Of a stretch of 34,216 nucleotides of DNA, positions 2,595 through 32,848 are shown piece after piece. This DNA is from a virus (Duplodnaviria; Heunggongvirae; Uroviricota; Caudoviricetes): IMG/VR virus record IMGVR_UViG_3300029181_000137. One strand, 5' to 3'. The notes beneath the pieces are model-generated. The model saw only the letters and a list, made by a program, of their open reading frames with translations. It was not told the DNA's origin and ran no database searches. The translations under genes were made by a program, and so were the position numbers. The number at the start of each line of letters is the position of its first letter. The stretch's first letter is position 1.

Positions 2595-3673
2595 CAGAAC
2601 GGGTCCTCCTGTACTCTGGCTTTTTTCTTTTTCCGCGCGCCGGGGGCTTCGGGTTCAGGCAGATAAGCATCAGGTGGGCCGACACGGATTTCCGTCAGGG
2701 TGCCATTCTGGTCCTGAGTAAACGTGACTTCCGAGACAAGCAGTTCGGTATTGTCGAAACCACAGACCGGATCGAAGACAATCACCCGCTGGTTGGGCTG
2801 CCACAGCGTACCGTTACCCTGTCGCCAGCCCTGCACCACATAGGTGGTTTCATCCGTCCGCGCCGCCCGTTGTCGGGCTTCAAAGTCAGCACGCGCAATA
2901 CAGCCTGCCCCCGTAGCCTGCCCTGTCTGCCTGATATACATCGGACGGTAACGGGCAATAAATGCATCCTCTGTGCGGGCCCGCAGCGCGGTGGTGGTGG
3001 CCTCACCGAAATCATCGTCGTTTCCGGCACGCTGCCCCGCCACCTGGTAAACTGAAAACCGCTCCCGGATACTCTTCTCCGTATCACAGGAAAGGATGTT
3101 TTCCCCGAGTACCAACGCGGTATGTGCCCGCGTTGAGCCAATACCGCCAATCACCAGCCTGCCGTGCGGGTCGTCATAAGCCAGCGCCTGCTGCTGACCG
3201 AGTATTTTGTTGATCACCTCAATCACCGTTTCACCGTGATCAGGCTGGACATCAGGAATAACACCCGACGGCGCACCGCTGTTCACCACCTCAATGCCGA
3301 AAGGCGCAGCAAGCGCCTGCGCAATCTGTACCAGCGATCGTCCGTTAAACTGTGTCGGTTCGGCTGCACAGTCAATCAGGTCAGCGGTCAGACTACGTCC
3401 GGCAATACCGGTGCTGACCGAACGAGCATCGTAACGAACGGGCGTCGCCTCCACCCAGCCGGTGATCACCAGCTCATCACCAATCAGCACTTCCACTTTT
3501 GAACCGTTTTTAATGCGCGGCTGAAGCGTGGTAATACCCTCATCTCCCGGCCACTGGCGGGTGATCTCCACACTGAAATCCCGCGCCAATCGTTCAACAC
3601 CGGCACCGATGCGCACCGATGTCCAGCCATTCCACTCCCGGCCATTTACCCGTAGCGTGACGTTATCGTTCAT
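2594..3673 (-). CDS. Baseplate hub, late control D family (Mu gp44/P-like)
   Basis: 359-aa ORF downstream of the DNA circulation N-like gene; size and synteny of gpD/Mu P family. Confidence 0.7.
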   Translation of the reverse strand: MNDNVTLRVNGREWNGWTSVRIGAGVERLARDFSVEITRQWPGDEGITTLQPRIKNGSKVEVLIGDELVITGWVEATPVRYDARSVSTGIAGRSLTADLIDCAAEPTQFNGRSLVQIAQALAAPFGIEVVNSGAPSGVIPDVQPDHGETVIEVINKILGQQQALAYDDPHGRLVIGGIGSTRAHTALVLGENILSCDTEKSIRERFSVYQVAGQRAGNDDDFGEATTTALRARTEDAFIARYRPMYIRQTGQATGAGCIARADFEARQRAARTDETTYVVQGWRQGNGTLWQPNQRVIVFDPVCGFDNTELLVSEVTFTQDQNGTLTEIRVGPPDAYLPEPEAPGARKKKKARVQEDPF

Positions 3674-4998
3674 TGCACTGGCACCTTCAGAGGGATCACC
3701 GGCACAAAGCCGGGATGCGTAATGGCATTACGCCGGATAATGTCCGCGTCACGCGCCGCGTTATCAAACCAGGTCGCCGCCAGCACCAGCGCGGGTAAAA
3801 CCTCATCCGGCGTGCGCTGAATGATCCGTGCAGACTGTTTAAGGCGCGTGTTGATATCCGCATTCAGATCTGCTTTCACCCGGCGCAGCGCCAGAAACAG
3901 CGCATCACTGGTTGTACGGGACAACTCCTTATCAATTGCCGTATTCAGTGTGTAGCGAATGTCAGTCAGTTCTTCCCACGTCGGCAGGTCAACCGTGCTT
4001 TTCACCGCCGGTGCATTGTTCAGTGCCGGATGCGTGACGGAAGGCCAGCCAGTGCTCTGCGCGGGTGTTGTTGCCTGCCCCACTGCGGCATTCTGCATCA
4101 CCGCGGAAGTTGTTGGCGCAGGTAATCGGGTGACGGCATACGCCGCTTCGCTGATTGCGGTCGTACGAAGGATGCTGGCAACCACGTTACGCTGCTGCGT
4201 CGCCGTGGCGGTGGTTTTACTGTCCGTTTTCCAGACGCCGCGCGGTTGCAGATCACTGCCGAGGCTGACACCGGAAAGCGTTTTGATCATGGTGACCAGG
4301 TCGCTGGCGTTACCATAAAGGCGTTTCCCGGTACGCCACATTTTCTGCACCTGCTCAACGAAATTTTTGCCTGACGATGGCGGCGGCAGAAGTACCGAGA
4401 TATCCCCCTGCAACAGCCTGGCGGCATCCGATACGGCAGAATCCACCACTTTCATCGCATCAGAAACATACCCAAGCATTGTGCTGGCATTACCGACGAC
4501 ATCGTTCTGCACAAAATCTGCCACGCCATCGATACTGAAACTACTGAAACTGTCACTGATGCAGTCATCCAGTGCAGAACAGGATGACATCAGCGTCTGC
4601 GCCGTCGCCGCACCTGATGTGGGGTAAGAGAGTTCTCCCGCTTCGACAAACTTCAGGTCAAAGCGGACAATACGCCCTTCACTCTTCGATGTGCTGACCC
4701 GAACTTCTCCGTCAACACAGACTTTCAGTTCACCGTAAGTCGGATGGACAAGCGTGCCGGGACCGGGTTTATTCAGCGCGTCAATCAGGCGATCGCGCTG
4801 GTCAAAGCAATCATCTCCCACCACATAAGCCGTGATGGACGGGCGGAAAGTGATTTTCCCCAGGTCTTCGGTATAGGGTTTGTCGCGGTTCGGGTATTCG
4901 TGCGTTTCCACACGACGTCCAGTTCCCGCACTTTCTTCTTCAACCTTAAACGGCACACCTCGAAATGACGCATCCTGAAGCCTGTCTTTCCACGTCAT
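3670..4998 (-). CDS. DNA circulation protein N-like (Mu gp43)
   Basis: 442-aa ORF; N-terminus (WKDRLQDASFRGVPF...HEYPNRDKPYTEDLGK) matches the remembered DNA_circ_N signature; SD GGAG upstream. Confidence 0.75.
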   Translation of the reverse strand: MTWKDRLQDASFRGVPFKVEEESAGTGRRVETHEYPNRDKPYTEDLGKITFRPSITAYVVGDDCFDQRDRLIDALNKPGPGTLVHPTYGELKVCVDGEVRVSTSKSEGRIVRFDLKFVEAGELSYPTSGAATAQTLMSSCSALDDCISDSFSSFSIDGVADFVQNDVVGNASTMLGYVSDAMKVVDSAVSDAARLLQGDISVLLPPPSSGKNFVEQVQKMWRTGKRLYGNASDLVTMIKTLSGVSLGSDLQPRGVWKTDSKTTATATQQRNVVASILRTTAISEAAYAVTRLPAPTTSAVMQNAAVGQATTPAQSTGWPSVTHPALNNAPAVKSTVDLPTWEELTDIRYTLNTAIDKELSRTTSDALFLALRRVKADLNADINTRLKQSARIIQRTPDEVLPALVLAATWFDNAARDADIIRRNAITHPGFVPVIPLKVPVQ

Positions 4999-26481: not shown

Positions 26482-26512
26482 CGTTCTGTGGTTAAAAATT
26501 GAAAGTGTTCTG

Positions 26513-26713
26513 CTAATCTTTCGGATAGATATCCGGTCTTAAGTCAGATTTCGTAATTGCACCTGACGTGCATTGCTCAAGTTTTTTAGCCAGCACAAAA
26601 CTGGCTTTTTTATAGCCATTGAAAACCAGCCGTAAGTAGCCAGGTGTTGAGCCAACTTTTCCGGCCAACTCGCCCTGCTGTTCTTTGGTTAAAGAGTCCC
26701 AATACACTTTCAT
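26513..26713 (-). CDS. cro: Cro-like HTH regulator
   Basis: 66-aa product from internal Met (MKVYWDSLTKEQQGELAGKVGSTPGYLRLVFNG...) with GGAGG SD; divergent from cI; the longer ORF-track version would run through the operators and into cI. Confidence 0.7.
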   Translation of the reverse strand: MKVYWDSLTKEQQGELAGKVGSTPGYLRLVFNGYKKASFVLAKKLEQCTSGAITKSDLRPDIYPKD

Positions 26714-26803
26714 ACAATATGTACCTCCGGTATACATATTACATGATTGAAATGAACCTTCAAGATACTTGTACCTTAACGGTACAAGGGTTTTAATTTT
26801 GTT
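26714..26803. promoter_or_regulatory. cI/cro intergenic region: OR-like operators and candidate pR
   Basis: Perfect 21-bp palindrome CTTGTACC-TTAAC-GGTACAAG at 26768..26788; imperfect ATATGTACC...GGTATACAT at 26717..26737; minus-strand TTGAAG-16-TAATAT (26736..26763). Confidence 0.65.
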
Positions 26804-27478
26804 ATGAAAACAATCCATGACATCCGGCGGTCTAACGCCAGAAAACTGAGAGATGGTGTTGGCGGGAATTCTTCCTTTGCCACTATGATTGATCGCGAGC
26901 CAACCCAGACCAGCAGGTTTATGGGAGATGGTGCTACTAAAAATATCGGTGACAGCATGGCACGACACATCGAAAAATGTTTCGACCTGCCTGTCGGATG
27001 GCTCGATCAAGAACACCAGACAACGAACATCACAAAAAAACCTGATGTTTCAATCACTAATAAACAAATCACATTAGTCCCTGTCATATCATGGGTACAG
27101 GCCGGAGCATGGAAAGAAGTTGGATATTCTGAGGTTGATTTGAGCACAGCAGAAACGTATCCCTGCCCTGTCCCCTGTGGGGAAATGACTTATATCTTGC
27201 GGGTGATAGGTGATTCAATGATTGATGAGTACCGCCCGGGAGACATGATTTTTGTCGATCCTGAAGTACCTGCCTGCCACGGTGACGACGTTATTGCATT
27301 GATGCACGATACAGGTGAAACCACCTTCAAAAGGTTGATAGAAGATGGGACACAGCGTTATCTCAAAGCGTTAAACCCAAACTGGCCTGAGCCTTACATT
27401 AAGATCAACGGTAATTGCTCTATAATTGGTACAGTGATTTTCTCAGGAAAACCAAGAAGATACAAAATCAAAGCCTAA
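26804..27478 (+). CDS. cI: CI-type repressor (HTH plus S24 LexA-like autopeptidase domain)
   Basis: 224 aa; C-terminal domain with GDSM motif (VIGDSMIDEYRPGDMIFVD) and downstream Lys (TFKRL); divergent from cro. Confidence 0.9.
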   Translation: MKTIHDIRRSNARKLRDGVGGNSSFATMIDREPTQTSRFMGDGATKNIGDSMARHIEKCFDLPVGWLDQEHQTTNITKKPDVSITNKQITLVPVISWVQAGAWKEVGYSEVDLSTAETYPCPVPCGEMTYILRVIGDSMIDEYRPGDMIFVDPEVPACHGDDVIALMHDTGETTFKRLIEDGTQRYLKALNPNWPEPYIKINGNCSIIGTVIFSGKPRRYKIKA

Positions 27479-27491
27479 TCAATGTTTATGA

Positions 27492-27513
27492 ACCTGCTTC
27501 GGCAGGTTTTTTT
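27492..27513 (+). terminator. Intrinsic terminator after cI
   Basis: ACCTGC-TTCG-GCAGGT followed by TTTTTTT, 14 nt after the cI stop. Confidence 0.65.
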
Positions 27514-27517
27514 ATAC

Positions 27518-27549
27518 TTGACAATGTACCTTTGAGATACATAATGTAC
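27518..27549 (+). promoter_or_regulatory. Candidate pL with OL-like operator half-sites
   Basis: TTGACA (27518..27523)-16 nt-CATAAT; two ATGTACC half-sites (27523..27529, 27543..27549) sharing the TGTACC motif of the OR palindromes. Confidence 0.5.
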
Positions 27550-27636
27550 CCAAGCGAAACAACAAACAGGCAGGTCGTCCACGAAGTAGCCGCCTGGGGC
27601 ATATGAAGTCCAGGATGATTCGTTAGCAACAAAAAA

Positions 27637-27667
27637 GCGCCCTACAGGACGCTTAGCTCTTTAACAA
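27637..27667 (+). promoter_or_regulatory. nut-like element: hairpin plus boxA-like GCTCTTTAACAA
   Basis: GCTCTTTAACAA at 27656..27667 matches the remembered boxA core of rrn operons; preceded by imperfect hairpin GCGCCC-TACA-GGACGC. Confidence 0.4.
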
Positions 27668-27712
27668 TCTGGTCCCCTTCAACAAGTAACTGATAACTTG
27701 AGGAGGTGTGAA

Positions 27713-27919
27713 ATGCACAAAACAGAACCCAAAATCGTCGCGCCTGGCTACACAGATGAGGAAATTTATGAGTGGATGACAAAGAAGCTGGCAGCTATAA
27801 ACCAGCTTCGTGAAGTGCTGTCTTATCGACAGGAAACAATAGACTCCTTAAAAAAACTGGATCAGGAAATCACGGTTTTATCACAGGATGTTACTTTAGA
27901 TATTGTGCAGACAAATTAG
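27713..27919 (+). CDS. First pL-operon ORF, small acidic hypothetical protein
   Basis: 68-aa product from MHKTEPK with strong SD GAGGAGGTG; no Arg-rich motif, so not a recognisable N. Confidence 0.5.
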   Translation: MHKTEPKIVAPGYTDEEIYEWMTKKLAAINQLREVLSYRQETIDSLKKLDQEITVLSQDVTLDIVQTN

Positions 27920-28325
27920 GATCCCATTCATTTTCGTCAAAATCATCAAAGTGATGAATTTGTGATCTCCAGTCTCGATAATCTAAAAATTTCTGGGCGG
28001 TTACGCTTATTTTATCAAGCGTGAGTTCATCCTGAATTGAAAGAAGAAGTTCATCAAATTTCATCTCATTAATCTGCTTTGGCATCCAGTGATGCTTCAT
28101 CAGAATAAGGTGAACCAGAGCCTTTTTCCCATTCAACTGATTATAGGGAGTGCCGAATTTCTTCCGGTGCTCATGTAAGACAAGGTCCAGAAGAGTAAGT
28201 AATGTTGCCCTTGATTCAACTTTACTTATTTCGACTGATGACACTACCCCACTGATTTCAATGCCCCGATACTTTCCAACATTTTCACAGTGGGATTTGT
28301 ACAACGTGTAGATATTACCGGACAT
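27891..28325 (-). CDS. AT-rich hypothetical protein in the immunity region
   Basis: 144-aa ORF, about 35% GC by eye, good SD (AAAGGAAAAG), convergent with and overlapping the 3' end of the pL-proximal ORF. Confidence 0.6.
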   Translation of the reverse strand: MSGNIYTLYKSHCENVGKYRGIEISGVVSSVEISKVESRATLLTLLDLVLHEHRKKFGTPYNQLNGKKALVHLILMKHHWMPKQINEMKFDELLLSIQDELTLDKISVTAQKFLDYRDWRSQIHHFDDFDENEWDPNLSAQYLK

Positions 28326-28340
28326 TTCTTTTCCTTTTGC

Positions 28341-28392
28341 GTTGTTGGGGATAACCAGATTAACCGAATCCTTGTTGTTGGGGAATAACCAG
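28341..28392. repeat. Two direct repeats upstream of the 144-aa gene
   Basis: GTTGTTGGGGATAACCAG (28341..28358) and GTTGTTGGGGAATAACCAG (28374..28392), 15-bp spacer. Confidence 0.5.
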
Positions 28393-28655
28393 GTCCACCT
28401 CGCCTGATGTGGCTAAAAGCAGGCACATAACAGCTAAGTATTTTCAACCAGAGAGAATTCTTAGCGTTGTGGTGAATGCGGCTCAGCGCACGCGGGTTAA
28501 GGTTGAGGCTGACAGTCGACCTTCTGTAGATACCCACCCGCCTGGTGTGCAACCTTCGCCAGGCACCGGGAGGCACCCGGCACCACAACTTTATGCTGTG
28601 TGTAGTCCTGGCGGTACCAGCTTGTACTCTTGCTTCCGGCTGGTACCGTCCTTTT

Positions 28656-28745
28656 TACAAAACAGAGAAGAGCATCACCGGACGACGGGCTCATAACCCA
28701 ATCCATCCGGGCGGCTGCCACCGCAGGTGTTCTTCTCTGTTTTGT
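28656..28745 (+). ncRNA. Long structured RNA element in the early-left leader (function unknown)
   Basis: 18-bp stem ACAAAACAGAGAAGAGCA (28657..28674) with TGTTCTTCTCTGTTTTGT (28728..28745); the single non-Watson-Crick position is a G-U pair only on the + strand transcript; 53-nt GC-rich interior with sub-hairpins. Confidence 0.4.
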
Positions 28746-28793
28746 GGAGAAACTAATCGGCCTTGCAGGGTCGATATGATGAGGAGCAGCAAA

Positions 28794-29156
28794 ATGGCTA
28801 GCGAACGCAGTACTGATGTGCAGGCATTTATCGGGGAGCTGGACGGCGGCGTATTTGAAACCAAAATCGGCGCAGTTCTCAGTGAAGTCGCTTCCGGTGT
28901 GATGAACACGAAAACCAAAGGTAAGGTCTCACTCAACCTGGAAATCGAACCATTTGATGAGAACCGTGTGAAAATCAAACACAAACTCTCATATGTTCGC
29001 CCGACTAACCGCGGGAAAATTTCCGAAGAAGACACCACCGAAACGCCGATGTATGTCAATCGCGGTGGTCGCCTGACTATTCTGCAGGAAGACCAGGGAC
29101 AGTTACTGACTCTTGCCGGTGAACCTGACGGAAAACTCCGCGCAGCAGGTCGTTAA
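28794..29156 (+). CDS. yfdP: YfdP-like prophage protein
   Basis: 120-aa product from MASERSTDVQ with GAGGAG SD; first of five consecutive genes whose lengths (120/274/178/120/101 aa) match the CPS-53 yfdPQRST set as I remember it. Confidence 0.6.
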   Translation: MASERSTDVQAFIGELDGGVFETKIGAVLSEVASGVMNTKTKGKVSLNLEIEPFDENRVKIKHKLSYVRPTNRGKISEEDTTETPMYVNRGGRLTILQEDQGQLLTLAGEPDGKLRAAGR

Positions 29157-29221
29157 TATCGTTTTTAATTAACTGATTATTTATCTCATCACTGAATATC
29201 TTTATATAGTGAGGACTTATT

Positions 29222-31063: not shown

Positions 31064-31368
31064 TGACCACTTTTACCGACAAAGAACTGATTAAAGAAAT
31101 TAAAGAGCGTATCAGCAGCCTTGACGTGCGAGACGATATTGAGCGCCGTGCTTATGAAATCGCACTCCTATCTCTGGAAGTAGAACCAGATGAACGCGAA
31201 GCTTATGAATTATTCATGGAAAAGCGTTTCGGTGACTTAGTAGATCGTCGGAGAGCAAAAAACGGCGATAACGAATACATGGCATGGGATATGACTCTCG
31301 GTTGGATCGTCTGGCAGCAACGAGCTGGTATCCATTTTTCAACAATGTCACAGCAAGAGGTGAAATAA
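31063..31368 (+). CDS. yfdT: YfdT-like protein
   Basis: 101-aa ORF, ATGA-type overlap with yfdS-like; size and synteny. Confidence 0.55.
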   Translation: MTTFTDKELIKEIKERISSLDVRDDIERRAYEIALLSLEVEPDEREAYELFMEKRFGDLVDRRRAKNGDNEYMAWDMTLGWIVWQQRAGIHFSTMSQQEVK

Positions 31369-31718
31369 TGGAGCCATACAGCCTCACACTCGATGAGGCC
31401 TGTCATTTTCTCAAGATATCCAGACCGACTGCCATTAACTGGATACGCACAGGGCGTCTTCAGGCAACACGCAAAGATCCCACTAAGAATAAATCTCCTT
31501 ACCTCACAACACGACAAGCCTGCATTGCGGCGCTTCAGTCTCCGCTGCATACTGTCCAGGTGAGCGCGGGTGATGGCATAACAGAGGAAAGAAAATGTCA
31601 CTCTTCCGCAGAGGTGAAATATGGTACGCCAGTTTCACATTGCCGAACGGTAAAAGATTTAAACAGTCTCTTGGAACAAAGGACAAAAGGCAGGCGACAG
31701 AACTCCATGACAAGCTAA
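31368..31718 (+). CDS. xis: Excisionase (HTH_17/Xis family)
   Basis: 116-aa product from [33 protein letters not shown] with TAATG coupling and AAGAGG SD; overlaps the int start by about 120 nt. Confidence 0.65.
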
Positions 31719-32772: not shown

Positions 32773-32848
32773 TGGTGCCGATAATAGGAGTCGAACCTAC
32801 GACCTTCGCATTACGAATGCGCTGCTCTACCAACTGAGCTATATCGGC
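32773..32848 (-). tRNA. thrW: tRNA-Thr (anticodon CGT), integration target
   Basis: Minus strand reads GCCGATATAGCTCAGTTGGTAGAGCAGCGCATTCGTAATGCGAAGGTCGTAGGTTCGACTCCTATTATCGGCACCA; anticodon loop ATTCGTAAT; encoded CCA end. Confidence 0.9.

What the first reader, a model, noticed from the sequence alone, without database searches (positions are those of the whole stretch)
27891..28392. AT-rich 144-aa gene antisense in the immunity region, with two 18-19 bp direct repeats upstream and a convergent overlap with the pL-proximal ORF
The gene occupies the position where lambdoid phages keep rexAB/sieB-type exclusion genes, has a strong SD, and is preceded by GTTGTTGGGGATAACCAG and GTTGTTGGGGAATAACCAG, which look like a regulator-binding site or promoter element. 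Its 3' end overlaps by 29 bp the 3' end of the 68-aa ORF transcribed from pL, so pL transcription would run antisense through it. That could couple its expression to the lysogenic state.
Basis: partly seen in the sequence, partly recalled or inferred. Interest (0 to 1): 0.55.

Follow-up and report, generated by a model that had tools for sequence, protein, structure and literature searches.

The report
Backwards two-gene prophage cassette beside pL
This is a real, conserved prophage gene of unknown function (ECs1072 family) that sits backwards just downstream of the early-left promoter of an SfIV-like Shigella/E. coli phage and moves as a unit with a small convergent partner gene, a conserved repeat block and its own terminators, so it is probably on in the dormant phage and off when the phage is induced.

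Summary
The 144-aa ORF (27891-28325, minus strand) has 38% GC against 50% for the window. It is preceded by two 18/19-bp direct repeats and overlaps the pL-proximal 68-aa ORF by 29 bp. The window is about 98.6% identical to Shigella phage SfIV.

The ORF is a genuine gene: NCBIfam NF033230 "ECs1072 family", phrog_5286, dN/dS 0.1-0.2, and an AlphaFold model at pLDDT 94. It has no Pfam, PADLOC or PDB match, so its fold is an orphan.

Three new points emerged:
- **Conserved pair.** The 144-aa and 68-aa genes form a convergent, 3'-overlapping pair that persists down to about 29% identity. This includes ST64B and Klebsiella phages, where the pair lies between Q and the holin.
- **Exchangeable cargo.** The pair occupies a hypervariable slot bounded by a shared minus-strand terminator and the repeat block.
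- **Phylogenetic footprint.** The repeat block stays 73-85% identical where the coding DNA is only 48-64% identical. It holds an invariant TA.TCT, a candidate -10.

The best reading is an autonomous, lysogen-expressed "moron" that convergent pL transcription shuts off, with the partner made only in lytic growth. An exclusion or defence role is plausible but untested.

The parts
27518..27545 (+). pL-like promoter (TTGACA-16-CATAAT), flanked by ATGTAC-type repeats that are presumed CI operators. It drives the 68-aa ORF and runs antisense through the 144-aa gene.
   Evidence: 11 of 12 consensus positions. D2 (repeats at 27523-27541 and 27543-27561). The cI gene (S24 peptidase) lies at 26804-27478.
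27625..27672 (-). Shared left module holding the distal minus-strand intrinsic terminator (hairpin 27654-27635 followed by a T-run). It would stop the 144-aa gene's transcript before it reaches pL and cI.
   Evidence: -12 kcal/mol. The module is retained in phages with a different cargo (L009, L010) but absent from SfV. A near-identical hairpin occupies the same place in L178.
27713..27919 (+). 68-aa partner gene. It has a GAGGAGG Shine-Dalgarno sequence, belongs to phrog_1744, and is predicted as a short beta hairpin plus one long helix.
   Evidence: (pLDDT 90). (dN/dS about 0.05-0.22). Homologous partners sit convergent to family genes in other phages.
27784..27809 (-). Proximal minus-strand terminator-like hairpin, located inside the partner ORF on the antisense strand.
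   Evidence: (-15.6 kcal/mol, z -4.6). Analogous hairpins occur in L178 at 3535-3561 and in ST64B at 3760-3780.
27891..28325 (-). 144-aa ECs1072-family gene. The protein is all-helical and its fold is an orphan.
   Evidence: NF033230, 157.8 bits against a cutoff of 70. (phrog_5286, 1.5e-90). for family size, alignment, model and selection. No fold match.
27891..27919 (.). 29-bp convergent 3' overlap of the two ORFs. It contains a remnant (TGGGATCCTA) of the palindrome TGGGATCCCA.
28341..28394 (-). Conserved repeat block. The proximal repeat is 28358-28341 and the distal repeat is 28392-28374. It holds a candidate -35 (TTCCCC, 28385-28380) and a candidate -10 (TAATCT, 28362-28357), giving an inferred transcription start near 28350.
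   Evidence: invariant TA.TCT and TATTCC. (the block is far better conserved than its flanks or the coding sequence). Mosaic junctions lie exactly at 28340|28341 and 28394|28395. The promoter assignment is inference.
27673..28340 (.). Exchangeable two-gene cargo (the 68-aa and 144-aa genes). L009 and L010 carry a phrog_1244 gene here instead.
28436..28659 (+). Neighbouring STnc100/PasD-like sRNA, divergent from the 144-aa gene. This is context and not part of the cassette.
   Evidence: 41.5 bits, E 3e-7, full model length, but below the gathering score of 47. (z -6.8)..

Best explanation
The 144-aa ORF encodes a real ECs1072-family protein. Together with the convergent 68-aa gene it forms a mobile two-gene accessory cassette (a 'moron'). 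The cassette sits in a hypervariable slot between pL and an STnc100-like sRNA in an SfIV-like lambdoid prophage.

**Shown**
- Both genes are under purifying selection.
- They co-occur, convergent and 3'-overlapping, in phages whose family proteins are only about 29-38% identical to this one.
- The pair is swapped as one block between otherwise collinear phages.
- The 52-bp repeat block upstream and the terminator hairpins downstream are conserved. Both are shared with a different cargo gene.

**Inferred**
- The repeat block is the gene's own weak promoter and operator: -35 TTCCCC in the distal repeat, -10 TAATCT between the repeats, and the transcription start inside the proximal repeat.
- In a lysogen CI keeps pL off. 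The minus-strand unit is then transcribed, crosses the partner ORF as antisense RNA, and stops at its terminators before reaching pL and cI.
- On induction the strong pL fires into it. This silences the 144-aa gene by transcriptional interference and RNA pairing, and expresses the partner.

**Guessed**
- The 144-aa protein has a lysogen-phase function harmful to phage growth, such as superinfection exclusion or abortive infection.
- The small coiled-coil partner is its lytic-phase antagonist.

Confidence by step: real two-gene cassette 0.9; state-coupled antisense unit 0.6; exclusion function with partner as antidote 0.3.
For: **The gene is real**
- NF033230 at 157.8 bits against a cutoff of 70, and phrog_5286.
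- 65 representative clusters.
- dN/dS of 0.10-0.21.
- AlphaFold model at pLDDT 94.4.

**The pair is conserved**
- E. albertii L006, L008, L095, L178, Serratia L014, ST64B and Klebsiella phages all carry a convergent overlapping partner.
- The partner families phrog_1744 and phrog_3501 are linked by the Serratia protein, which hits both.
- hhalign of the two partner groups gives E 4.5e-5.

**The family gene is always antisense to the flanking lytic operon, and the partner is sense**
-.

**Cassette behaviour**
- Junctions with SfV lie at 27624|27625 and 28394|28395. Junctions with PhiR29_1 and OW848980 lie at 27672|27673 and 28340|28341.
- The cassette is found with at least two cI types.
- It is present in 416-422 of 5426 complete E. 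coli genomes.

**The repeat block is a footprint**
- Identity to the window against coding-DNA identity: 81% vs 48% (L178), 85% vs 59% (L008), 73% vs 64% (L007).
- An invariant TA.TCT lies about 34 nt from the ATG.
- ST64B and Klebsiella relatives have an extended -10 (TGnTAAAAT or TGnTATTGT) at the equivalent distance in 16 of 17 upstream variants.

**Terminators on the gene's strand**
-.

**Expression**
- ECs1072 itself appears in a microarray list from uninduced O157 Sakai, which suggests a detectable transcript of a family member.
Against: - No sigma-70 consensus promoter reaches the scan threshold on the minus strand. The proposed promoter matches only 6 of 12 positions.
- No transcript, transcription-start or protein data exist for this locus.
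- There is no similarity to any known defence, exclusion or toxin-antitoxin family, and no structural neighbour. The function is therefore pure inference from position and architecture.
- Two lineages (L007, L179) lack the partner, so the partner is not obligatory.
- In ST64B-type phages the partner appears to sit just downstream of a promoter-like site following Q. If that is a constitutive late promoter, the partner is not strictly lytic-only there.
- The block's conservation could partly reflect its use as a recombination linker.
Confidence: 0.45

Rival explanations
1. Reversed roles, in the manner of a toxin-antitoxin pair. The promoter-proximal small partner is a lytic-phase host-takeover or toxic protein, in the way Kil is in lambda's pL operon. 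The 144-aa protein and its antisense 3' UTR are made in the lysogen to neutralise leaky partner expression.
For: - The partner is the first ORF after pL, or the first after a promoter-like site following Q in ST64B.
- The 144-aa transcript would be fully complementary to the partner mRNA, including its Shine-Dalgarno sequence.
- The pair is tightly linked.
Against: - Family genes exist without any partner (L007, L179), so the 144-aa protein has a function of its own.
- The partner's C-terminus is variable, truncated or frameshifted. This is unexpected for the key effector.
- No toxin-antitoxin domain is detected.
Confidence: 0.12
2. Phage-development regulator. The unit mainly acts in cis or on the phage itself. 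Its antisense transcription, or its protein, damps pL (or late-operon) expression to stabilise lysogeny or time the lytic programme, in the way lambda paQ and oop RNAs do.
For: - The unit is always inserted antisense immediately downstream of strong antiterminated promoters (pL here, the Q-holin interval in ST64B and Klebsiella phages).
- The convergent overlap is conserved.
Against: - The cassette is dispensable. Collinear phages such as SfV and Ayreon lack it.
- Strong purifying selection on a 144-aa protein with a confident globular fold argues that the protein matters, not only the RNA.
- No DNA-binding domain was recognised.
Confidence: 0.15
3. Host-directed lysogenic-conversion factor. 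The 144-aa protein changes host physiology or virulence, and the overlap with the partner is only a by-product of tight packing.
For: - The unit has the typical anatomy of a lysogenic-conversion moron: low GC and its own terminators.
- The family is restricted to Enterobacterales prophages.
Against: - The partner is conserved, with the overlap retained, down to about 29% identity of the family protein and in a different genomic slot. That is hard to explain as packing.
- From the sequence by eye there is no signal peptide or secretion motif. This was not formally tested.
Confidence: 0.15
4. The repeats are not regulatory. They are a short conserved 'linker' that only serves homologous recombination between phages (a mosaic boundary sequence), or they are an upstream element of the divergent STnc100-like sRNA promoter.
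For: - Two independent mosaic junctions fall exactly at the two edges of the block.
- An sRNA gene starts 44 bp away on the other strand.
Against: - The block travels with the 5' end of family genes even where no STnc100-like match was found, in L007 and in L008 (only about 540 nt of upstream sequence is available for L008).
- SfV keeps the sRNA without the block.
- Within-block conservation is patterned (TATTCC, AAGGA, TA.TCT, TATCC), not uniform.
- Both repeats changed AAC to AGT together in L178.
Confidence: 0.15
5. The 144-aa ORF is a chance ORF.
For: Its sequence is AT-rich. SfIV annotators also called an overlapping, doubtful ORF (SfIV_35).
Against:: family membership, 65 clusters, pLDDT 94 and dN/dS of 0.1-0.2.
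Confidence: 0.01

Closest known systems
NCBIfam NF033230 'ECs1072 family phage-associated protein' / PHROG phrog_5286 (function unknown)
   Same: Full-length match well above the cutoff, at 157.8 bits against 70, and phrog_5286 at E 1.5e-90. RefSeq annotates identical copies with this name.
   Different: Nothing differs; this is the family. The family has no assigned function, Pfam domain or solved structure.
'Morons' of lambdoid phages: autonomous promoter-gene-terminator units inserted between conserved genes and expressed from the prophage (concept from HK97/HK022 comparative genomics; own knowledge)
   Same: - Presence/absence polymorphism between collinear phages.
- Deviant GC content.
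- Its own terminators.
- Orientation independent of the surrounding operon.

   Different: - The cargo is a convergent two-gene pair in which one member belongs to the host operon's strand.
- The promoter is only inferred.
- The promoter block and terminator act as a reusable frame for different cargo.
P22/lambda sieB-esc-sas (own knowledge: Ranade & Poteete 1993). This is an exclusion gene in the pL region whose lethal effect on the phage's own lytic growth is cancelled by an inhibitor polypeptide and an antisense RNA.
   Same: A lysogen-phase gene in the early-left region, with antisense RNA and an inhibitor proposed to switch it off when the resident phage grows. This is the nearest functional analogy for the proposed mechanism.
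   Different: - No sequence similarity; Pfam gives no hit of any kind.
- Esc is an internal in-frame product of sieB, whereas the partner here is a separate convergent ORF.
- The exclusion activity of the 144-aa protein is untested.
Lambda rexAB
   Same: An accessory function in the immunity region that is expressed in lysogens. This applies by analogy only.
   Different: - rexAB lies between cI and pL and is co-transcribed with cI. This gene is beyond pL, on the opposite strand, as its own unit.
- No homology.
BstA-type prophage abortive-infection genes with built-in self-immunity, encoded next to the repressor (own knowledge: Owen et al. 2021)
   Same: Location next to the repressor in lambdoid or P22-like prophages, and the idea of a defence with a cognate self-immunity element.
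   Different: - No homology, and the protein is far smaller.
- Self-immunity in BstA is a DNA element, whereas here a protein and antisense transcription are proposed.

Membership tests
ECs1072 family (NCBIfam NF033230) | HMM score for the whole protein above the curated cutoff (70 bits), over the full profile length | tested here: met
   157.8 bits; residues 4-144 match profile positions 2-142 of 142.
PHROG phrog_5286 | Profile match over the full length | tested here: met
   E 1.5e-90, positions 1-144 of 144. The ST64B homolog also matches, at 2e-17.
Lambdoid-phage moron | Present or absent between otherwise collinear phage genomes | tested here: met
   SfV, Ayreon, PhiR29_1 and OW848980 carry other sequence between the same flanks.
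Lambdoid-phage moron | Base composition differs from the surrounding genome | tested here: met
   38.4-39.7% GC against 50.5%.
Lambdoid-phage moron | Own intrinsic terminator downstream | tested here: met
   Predicted hairpins with T-runs at 27809-27784 and 27654-27635 on the gene's strand. The arrangement is conserved in L178 and ST64B. These are predictions only.
Lambdoid-phage moron | Own promoter | tested here: inconclusive
   No hit of 9 or more of 12 consensus positions. There is a conserved block with an invariant TA.TCT and a TT-containing -35. Relatives carry an extended -10 at the same distance.
Lambdoid-phage moron | Transcribed from the repressed prophage | not testable with these tools
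   The only hint is that ECs1072 is listed as differentially expressed in uninduced O157 Sakai.
Known anti-phage defence systems (PADLOC-DB 2.0.0) | Match to any defence-protein HMM | tested here: not met
   No families at E up to 1 for either the 144-aa or the 68-aa protein.
rexAB / sieB exclusion genes | Sequence homology, or lambda-like position and orientation | tested here: not met
   No Pfam or PADLOC hit of any kind. The gene is downstream of pL and antisense, not co-transcribed with cI.
Type II toxin-antitoxin module | Two adjacent co-directional genes in one operon, with recognisable toxin or antitoxin domains | tested here: not met
   The genes are convergent, and no toxin-antitoxin domain was found.
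HEPN-domain RNases | Invariant Rx4-6H motif and a HEPN fold | tested here: not met
   H72 is invariant, but the position 5 residues upstream is variable (K/R/I/E/L). The Foldseek hit to a HEPN toxin has probability 0.08 and TM-score 0.23.
HD / HDOD phosphohydrolase superfamily | H...HD...D metal-binding residues and a significant fold match | tested here: not met
STnc100 sRNA (Rfam RF02076), for the neighbouring element | Covariance-model score at or above the gathering score of 47 bits | tested here: inconclusive
   41.5 bits, E 3e-7, covering the full model length. The copy in L006 scores 46.2 bits.

The most novel reading that the evidence does not exclude
The ECs1072-family protein and its small convergent partner are a previously unrecognised anti-phage (exclusion or abortive-infection) system gated by prophage state. 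The orphan-fold 144-aa protein acts in lysogens against incoming phages. The promoter-proximal coiled-coil partner is made only when pL (or the late promoter) fires, and neutralises it so that the resident phage can grow. The conserved convergent overlap and the repeat-block promoter form the switch.
Probability: 0.25. Interest if true: 0.7.

Novelty: new member of a known kind. Interest (0 to 1): 0.42.

Why it matters
About 8% of complete E. coli genomes, many Shigella and Salmonella genomes, and phages of Klebsiella, Serratia, Proteus and Providencia carry this family, yet nothing is known about it. This analysis turns an anonymous "hypothetical protein" into a defined, testable unit. The unit has two genes, a 52-bp conserved control block, two terminators and a clear prediction: on in the lysogen, off after induction, with the partner as antagonist.

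If the protein proves to be an exclusion or defence factor, it would add a small system with a new fold and a self-immunity switch based on convergent transcription. The slot itself is also of interest. Its reusable promoter block and terminator frame different cargo, which makes it a candidate hunting ground for further accessory or defence genes in SfV/SfIV-like prophages.

Tried and rejected
**Function from sequence**
- Pfam, PADLOC, NCBIfam, PHROGs and PDB sequence searches gave only "unknown function" families.
- A profile search of 5.8 billion proteins gave no informative names or Pfam domains.

**Function from structure**
- The afdb50 library was unavailable.
- HEPN and HD readings were rejected on motif grounds.

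**What binds the repeats**
- CI binding is rejected. The pL operators are ATGTAC-type and unrelated.
- No second copy of the motif exists elsewhere in the window.
- By eye, each repeat holds a DnaA-box-like 9-mer: TTATCCCCA here, ATATCCACA in L007 and TTATCCACG in L176, each one mismatch from TTATCCACA. The most conserved variant breaks position 7, so this is kept only as a lead.
- A CsrA-like ACAAGGA motif lies between the repeats and at the Shine-Dalgarno sequence (window, L007). This is noted but not testable here.
- RNA hairpins in the block showed no consistent covariation (by inspection).
- Sigma-54 and sigma-E consensus sequences do not fit.

**Other**
- The annotated SfIV_35 ORF (window 28244-28588, minus strand) was considered as a reason for the block's conservation and rejected. 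Similarity ends upstream of the block in L007, L008 and L178, and L008 has a 1-nt indel inside it.
- The search for related loci with the broad family alignment failed because no stretch was conserved enough. The narrower runs mostly returned identical copies.
- Literature searches for ECs1072, SfIV immunity-region genes and lambdoid defence hotspots found no functional study.
Full report
**Setting**

The window is an SfIV-like lambdoid prophage. Positions 26500-29200 are 98.6% identical over their full length to Shigella phage SfIV (KC814930). The local order, is:
- replication and cII-like genes (minus strand);
- cro (26513-26713, minus strand);
- cI with an S24 peptidase domain (26804-27478, plus strand) and its terminator (27490-27509);
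- a near-consensus pL (TTGACA-16-CATAAT, 27518-27545, plus strand) embedded in ATGTAC-type repeats;
- the 68-aa ORF (27713-27919, plus strand);
- the 144-aa ORF (27891-28325, minus strand);
- the repeats;
- a GC-rich 400-bp stretch;
- yfdP-, yfdQ- (DUF2303) and yfdR-like genes (plus strand).

**Observation check**

- The gene has 38.4% GC against 50.5% for the window.
- The repeats are at 28341-28358 and 28374-28392 (18 and 19 nt, with a one-base insertion). They are unique in the window and far beyond chance.
- The two ORFs overlap by 29 bp, at 27891-27919.
- The Shine-Dalgarno sequence is AAGGA, 6 nt from the ATG. It is adequate rather than strong.
- One correction of position: the gene is beyond pL and antisense to the pL operon. 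It is not in lambda's rexAB position between cI and pL.

**The ORF is a genuine gene of a catalogued but uncharacterised family**
- It scores 157.8 bits on NCBIfam NF033230, "ECs1072 family phage-associated protein" (cutoff 70), and 1.5e-90 on phrog_5286.
- An exhaustive HMMER scan found 65 clusters at 50% identity. All are about 145-155 aa.
- In the family alignment H72 and W134 are invariant. R39, L46, L50, R54, L64, G66, A69 and W80 are nearly so.
- Pairwise dN/dS is 0.10-0.21, with synonymous sites otherwise saturated.
- AlphaFold2 with this alignment gives a confident all-helical model (pLDDT 94.4, pTM 0.88).

Function cannot be read from any of this.
- There is no Pfam, PADLOC or PDB sequence match.
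- A profile search of 5.8 billion proteins returned only "ECs1072 family" or "hypothetical". All hits come from Enterobacterales: Escherichia, Shigella, Salmonella, Proteus, Providencia, Morganella, Xenorhabdus and Arsenophonus. Serratia and Klebsiella came from other searches.

**The gene has a conserved convergent partner**

The 68-aa ORF (phrog_1744) is also under purifying selection. dN/dS is about 0.22 against L008 and about 0.05 over the shared part against L006. It is predicted as a short beta hairpin followed by one long helix.

A convergent, 3'-overlapping small ORF with the same N-terminal motif (EPxxxxPGxTxEExxxW) accompanies family genes in these loci:
- an E. albertii prophage (72% identity of the family protein);
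- a metagenomic contig (52%);
- L095 (38%);
- L178 (33%);
- Serratia L014.

The same holds in Salmonella phage ST64B and many Klebsiella phages. There an unannotated 144-aa homolog (29% identity, pairwise E 5e-16) converges on Sb50 or GP45.

The two partner families, phrog_1744 and phrog_3501, are connected. The Serratia protein hits both, and a profile-profile match of the N-terminal motif gives E 4.5e-5.

By lineage, eight have a clear partner and two a probable one (L176/L177 and P0045). Two lack it (L007, L179).

In ST64B and Klebsiella phages the pair lies between the Q antiterminator and the holin, not at pL. In every context the small gene runs with the flanking lytic operon and the ECs1072-family gene runs against it. 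The overlap is old. In the ST64B type a palindrome, TGGGATCCCA, encodes W-D-P in both proteins, including the family's invariant Trp. In the window a silent CCC-to-CCT change in the 144-aa gene is what converts the partner's TGG into its TAG stop.

**The pair is exchangeable cargo in a hypervariable slot**
- Against SfV, homology breaks at 27624|27625 and 28394|28395.
- Against PhiR29_1 and E. coli OW848980, it breaks at 27672|27673 and 28340|28341.
- Against Ayreon, it breaks at 27572|27573 and 28608|28609.

PhiR29_1 and OW848980 carry a single unrelated minus-strand gene instead (171 aa, phrog_1244). They keep the repeat block upstream of it and the minus-strand terminator downstream of it. 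SfV carries a third content, again a convergent overlapping pair: orf33 plus an unannotated 81-aa minus-strand ORF. None of these alternative cargo proteins matches PADLOC.

The window-type cassette occurs in 416-422 of 5426 complete E. coli genomes, almost always at 95% identity or more. It occurs with at least two different cI alleles. This matches the description of a moron: low GC, present or absent between collinear phages, and flanked by its own control signals.

**The repeats are part of a phylogenetic footprint**

I aligned the upstream regions of diverged family genes and measured identity to the window for the 52-bp block 28341-28392, for the whole coding DNA and for the 48 nt further upstream:

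| Locus | Repeat block | Whole coding DNA | 48 nt further upstream |
|---|---|---|---|
| L178 | 81% | 48% (35% at protein level) | 44% |
| L008 | 85% | 59% | not compared |
| L007 | 73% | 64% | not compared |

Invariant positions form the pattern TATTCC.C.AC...AAGGA.T.G..TA.TCT.G.TA.CC.CA.C. Both repeat cores and the spacer are therefore constrained. In L178 both repeats changed AAC to AGT together.

The invariant TA.TCT (TAATCT, 28362-28357) fits the TAnnnT core of a -10 element. A TT-containing hexamer (TTCCCC, 28385-28380) lies 17 nt upstream, inside the distal repeat. This would place the transcription start near 28350, inside the proximal repeat, and give a leader of 21-27 nt. That is only 6 of 12 consensus positions and falls below the scan threshold, so it remains an inference. 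However, the ST64B and Klebsiella relatives carry a good extended -10 (TGnTAAAAT or TGnTATTGT) at the equivalent distance from the ATG in 16 of 17 distinct upstream variants. The family gene thus has its own promoter there.

Identical sequences over the -35 region and the start site, three helical turns apart, look more like operators for a repressor than activator sites. The binder is unknown. CI is excluded by sequence. A DnaA-box-like 9-mer and CsrA-like GGA motifs are leads only.

Both edges of the block coincide with mosaic junctions, so it probably also serves as a homology patch for cargo swapping.

**Terminators complete the unit**

On the gene's strand there are two terminator-like hairpins.
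- One lies inside the partner ORF (27809-27784, -15.6 kcal/mol, z -4.6).
- The other lies just beyond the partner's start (27654-27635).

L178 has the same two, the second nearly identical in sequence. ST64B has one 45 nt after the stop codon. The minus-strand transcript would therefore be complementary to most or all of the partner mRNA. It would stop about 90 nt before reaching pL and the 3' end of cI, which protects the repressor gene from antisense transcription.

**Mechanism**

The shown elements are a conserved two-gene convergent cassette with a conserved upstream block and downstream terminators, always oriented against a strong lytic promoter.

The inferred steps are these. With CI bound at pL, the weak minus-strand promoter is free. 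The 144-aa protein is made, and its 3' UTR masks any leaky partner mRNA. On induction the 11-of-12 pL fires head-on into the unit. Collisions and RNA duplexes then shut the 144-aa gene down, and the partner is translated from its strong Shine-Dalgarno sequence.

The biological role is a guess from architecture and location. I propose a lysogen-phase activity that the phage must cancel for its own growth, meaning exclusion or abortive infection, with the partner as antidote. The closest precedent is P22/lambda sieB-esc-sas. Several points weigh against over-reading this. There is no homology to any known defence protein. Lineages without a partner exist. In ST64B the partner seems to follow a promoter-like site right after Q (TTGAAA-16-TATGAT), which may not be lysogen-silent. 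Rival readings are listed separately: reversed toxin-antitoxin-like roles, a cis-regulatory role, and host-directed conversion.

**Novelty and verdict**

The gene is a member of a known, named, function-unknown family. The kind of element, a prophage moron in an immunity-region hot spot, is well known. As far as my searches show, three things are new:
- the obligate-looking convergent partner;
- the reusable promoter-block and terminator frame;
- the strong footprint over the repeats.

Interest is moderate: a well-defined candidate for a state-gated accessory or defence module, but with no functional evidence.

Noticed in passing
window 28436-28659 (+), within the conserved 28395-28794 stretch: This is an STnc100/PasD-like prophage sRNA, divergent from the 144-aa gene. 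The Rfam RF02076 match scores 41.5 bits (gathering score 47) at E 3e-7 and spans the whole model. The 400-nt region folds far better than shuffled sequence (z -6.8), with a terminator-like hairpin at 28612-28648 followed by a U-run and a 25-bp-arm hairpin at 28657-28745. The same element is 89% identical in K-12 e14, where it is annotated 'ymfH'. STnc100 copies are expressed in uninduced EHEC and Salmonella according to PMC5331693 and PMC10794520, and are related to PasD according to bioRxiv 10.64898/2026.05.13.724894.
   Followed up: partly
L004 (ST64B) 3683-3692; window 27917-27926: In ST64B-type modules the palindrome TGGGATCCCA in the convergent overlap encodes Trp-Asp-Pro in both proteins at once. 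In the window the sequence is TGGGATCCTA. The change is silent in the 144-aa gene but creates the TAG stop of the 68-aa ORF, so the window's partner is a truncated form.
   Followed up: yes
L004 (ST64B, AY055382) 3281-3715 (+); L005 (Klebsiella KPP5665-2) 3345-3791 (+): Full-length ECs1072-family genes are unannotated in the deposited records of ST64B and several Klebsiella phages. They lie antisense between the Q antiterminator and the holin, overlapping sb50 or GP45.
   Followed up: yes
L002 (SfV, U82619) 2652-2948 (+) and 2866-3111 (-): SfV fills the same slot with a different convergent, overlapping pair: orf33 plus an unannotated 81-aa minus-strand ORF, with an 83-bp overlap. Convergent pairs may therefore be a general feature of this slot.
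   Followed up: partly
L009 (PhiR29_1) 1694-2422 and L010 (E. coli OW848980) 1634-2149, both on the minus strand: This is an alternative cargo in the same frame: a 171-aa coiled-coil protein (phrog_1244, with no PADLOC hit). It uses the same repeat block and the same downstream terminator. The 242-aa CDS annotated in PhiR29_1 runs through the repeats and is probably over-extended.
   Followed up: partly
window 28244-28588 (-): The ORF annotated in SfIV as SfIV_35 (114 aa, TTG start) overlaps the repeat block, the 5' end of the 144-aa gene and the sRNA region. It is not conserved as a reading frame in diverged loci and is probably spurious.
   Followed up: partly
L095 2-169 (-): A phage-encoded CsrA homolog (PF02599) lies directly next to the ECs1072-family gene in one prophage. 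The leaders of the window-type and L007 genes carry ACAAGGA motifs resembling CsrA sites.
   Followed up: no
window 32776-32848 (-), 31284-31718 (+): A tRNA gene (71.8 bits) lies near a TorI-like excisionase ORF. This likely marks the attachment-site end of the prophage.
   Followed up: no
L006 3464-3652 (+): The E. albertii relative carries isrK and C4 antisense-RNA matches (Rfam, above the gathering score) inside its early-right region. No such match was found in the window.
   Followed up: no
window 27523-27561 (+): Two ATGTAC-containing repeats overlap and follow pL. One is the palindrome ATGTA-N9-TACAT. They are presumably the OL operators of this CI and are unrelated to the repeats in the finding.
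   Followed up: no
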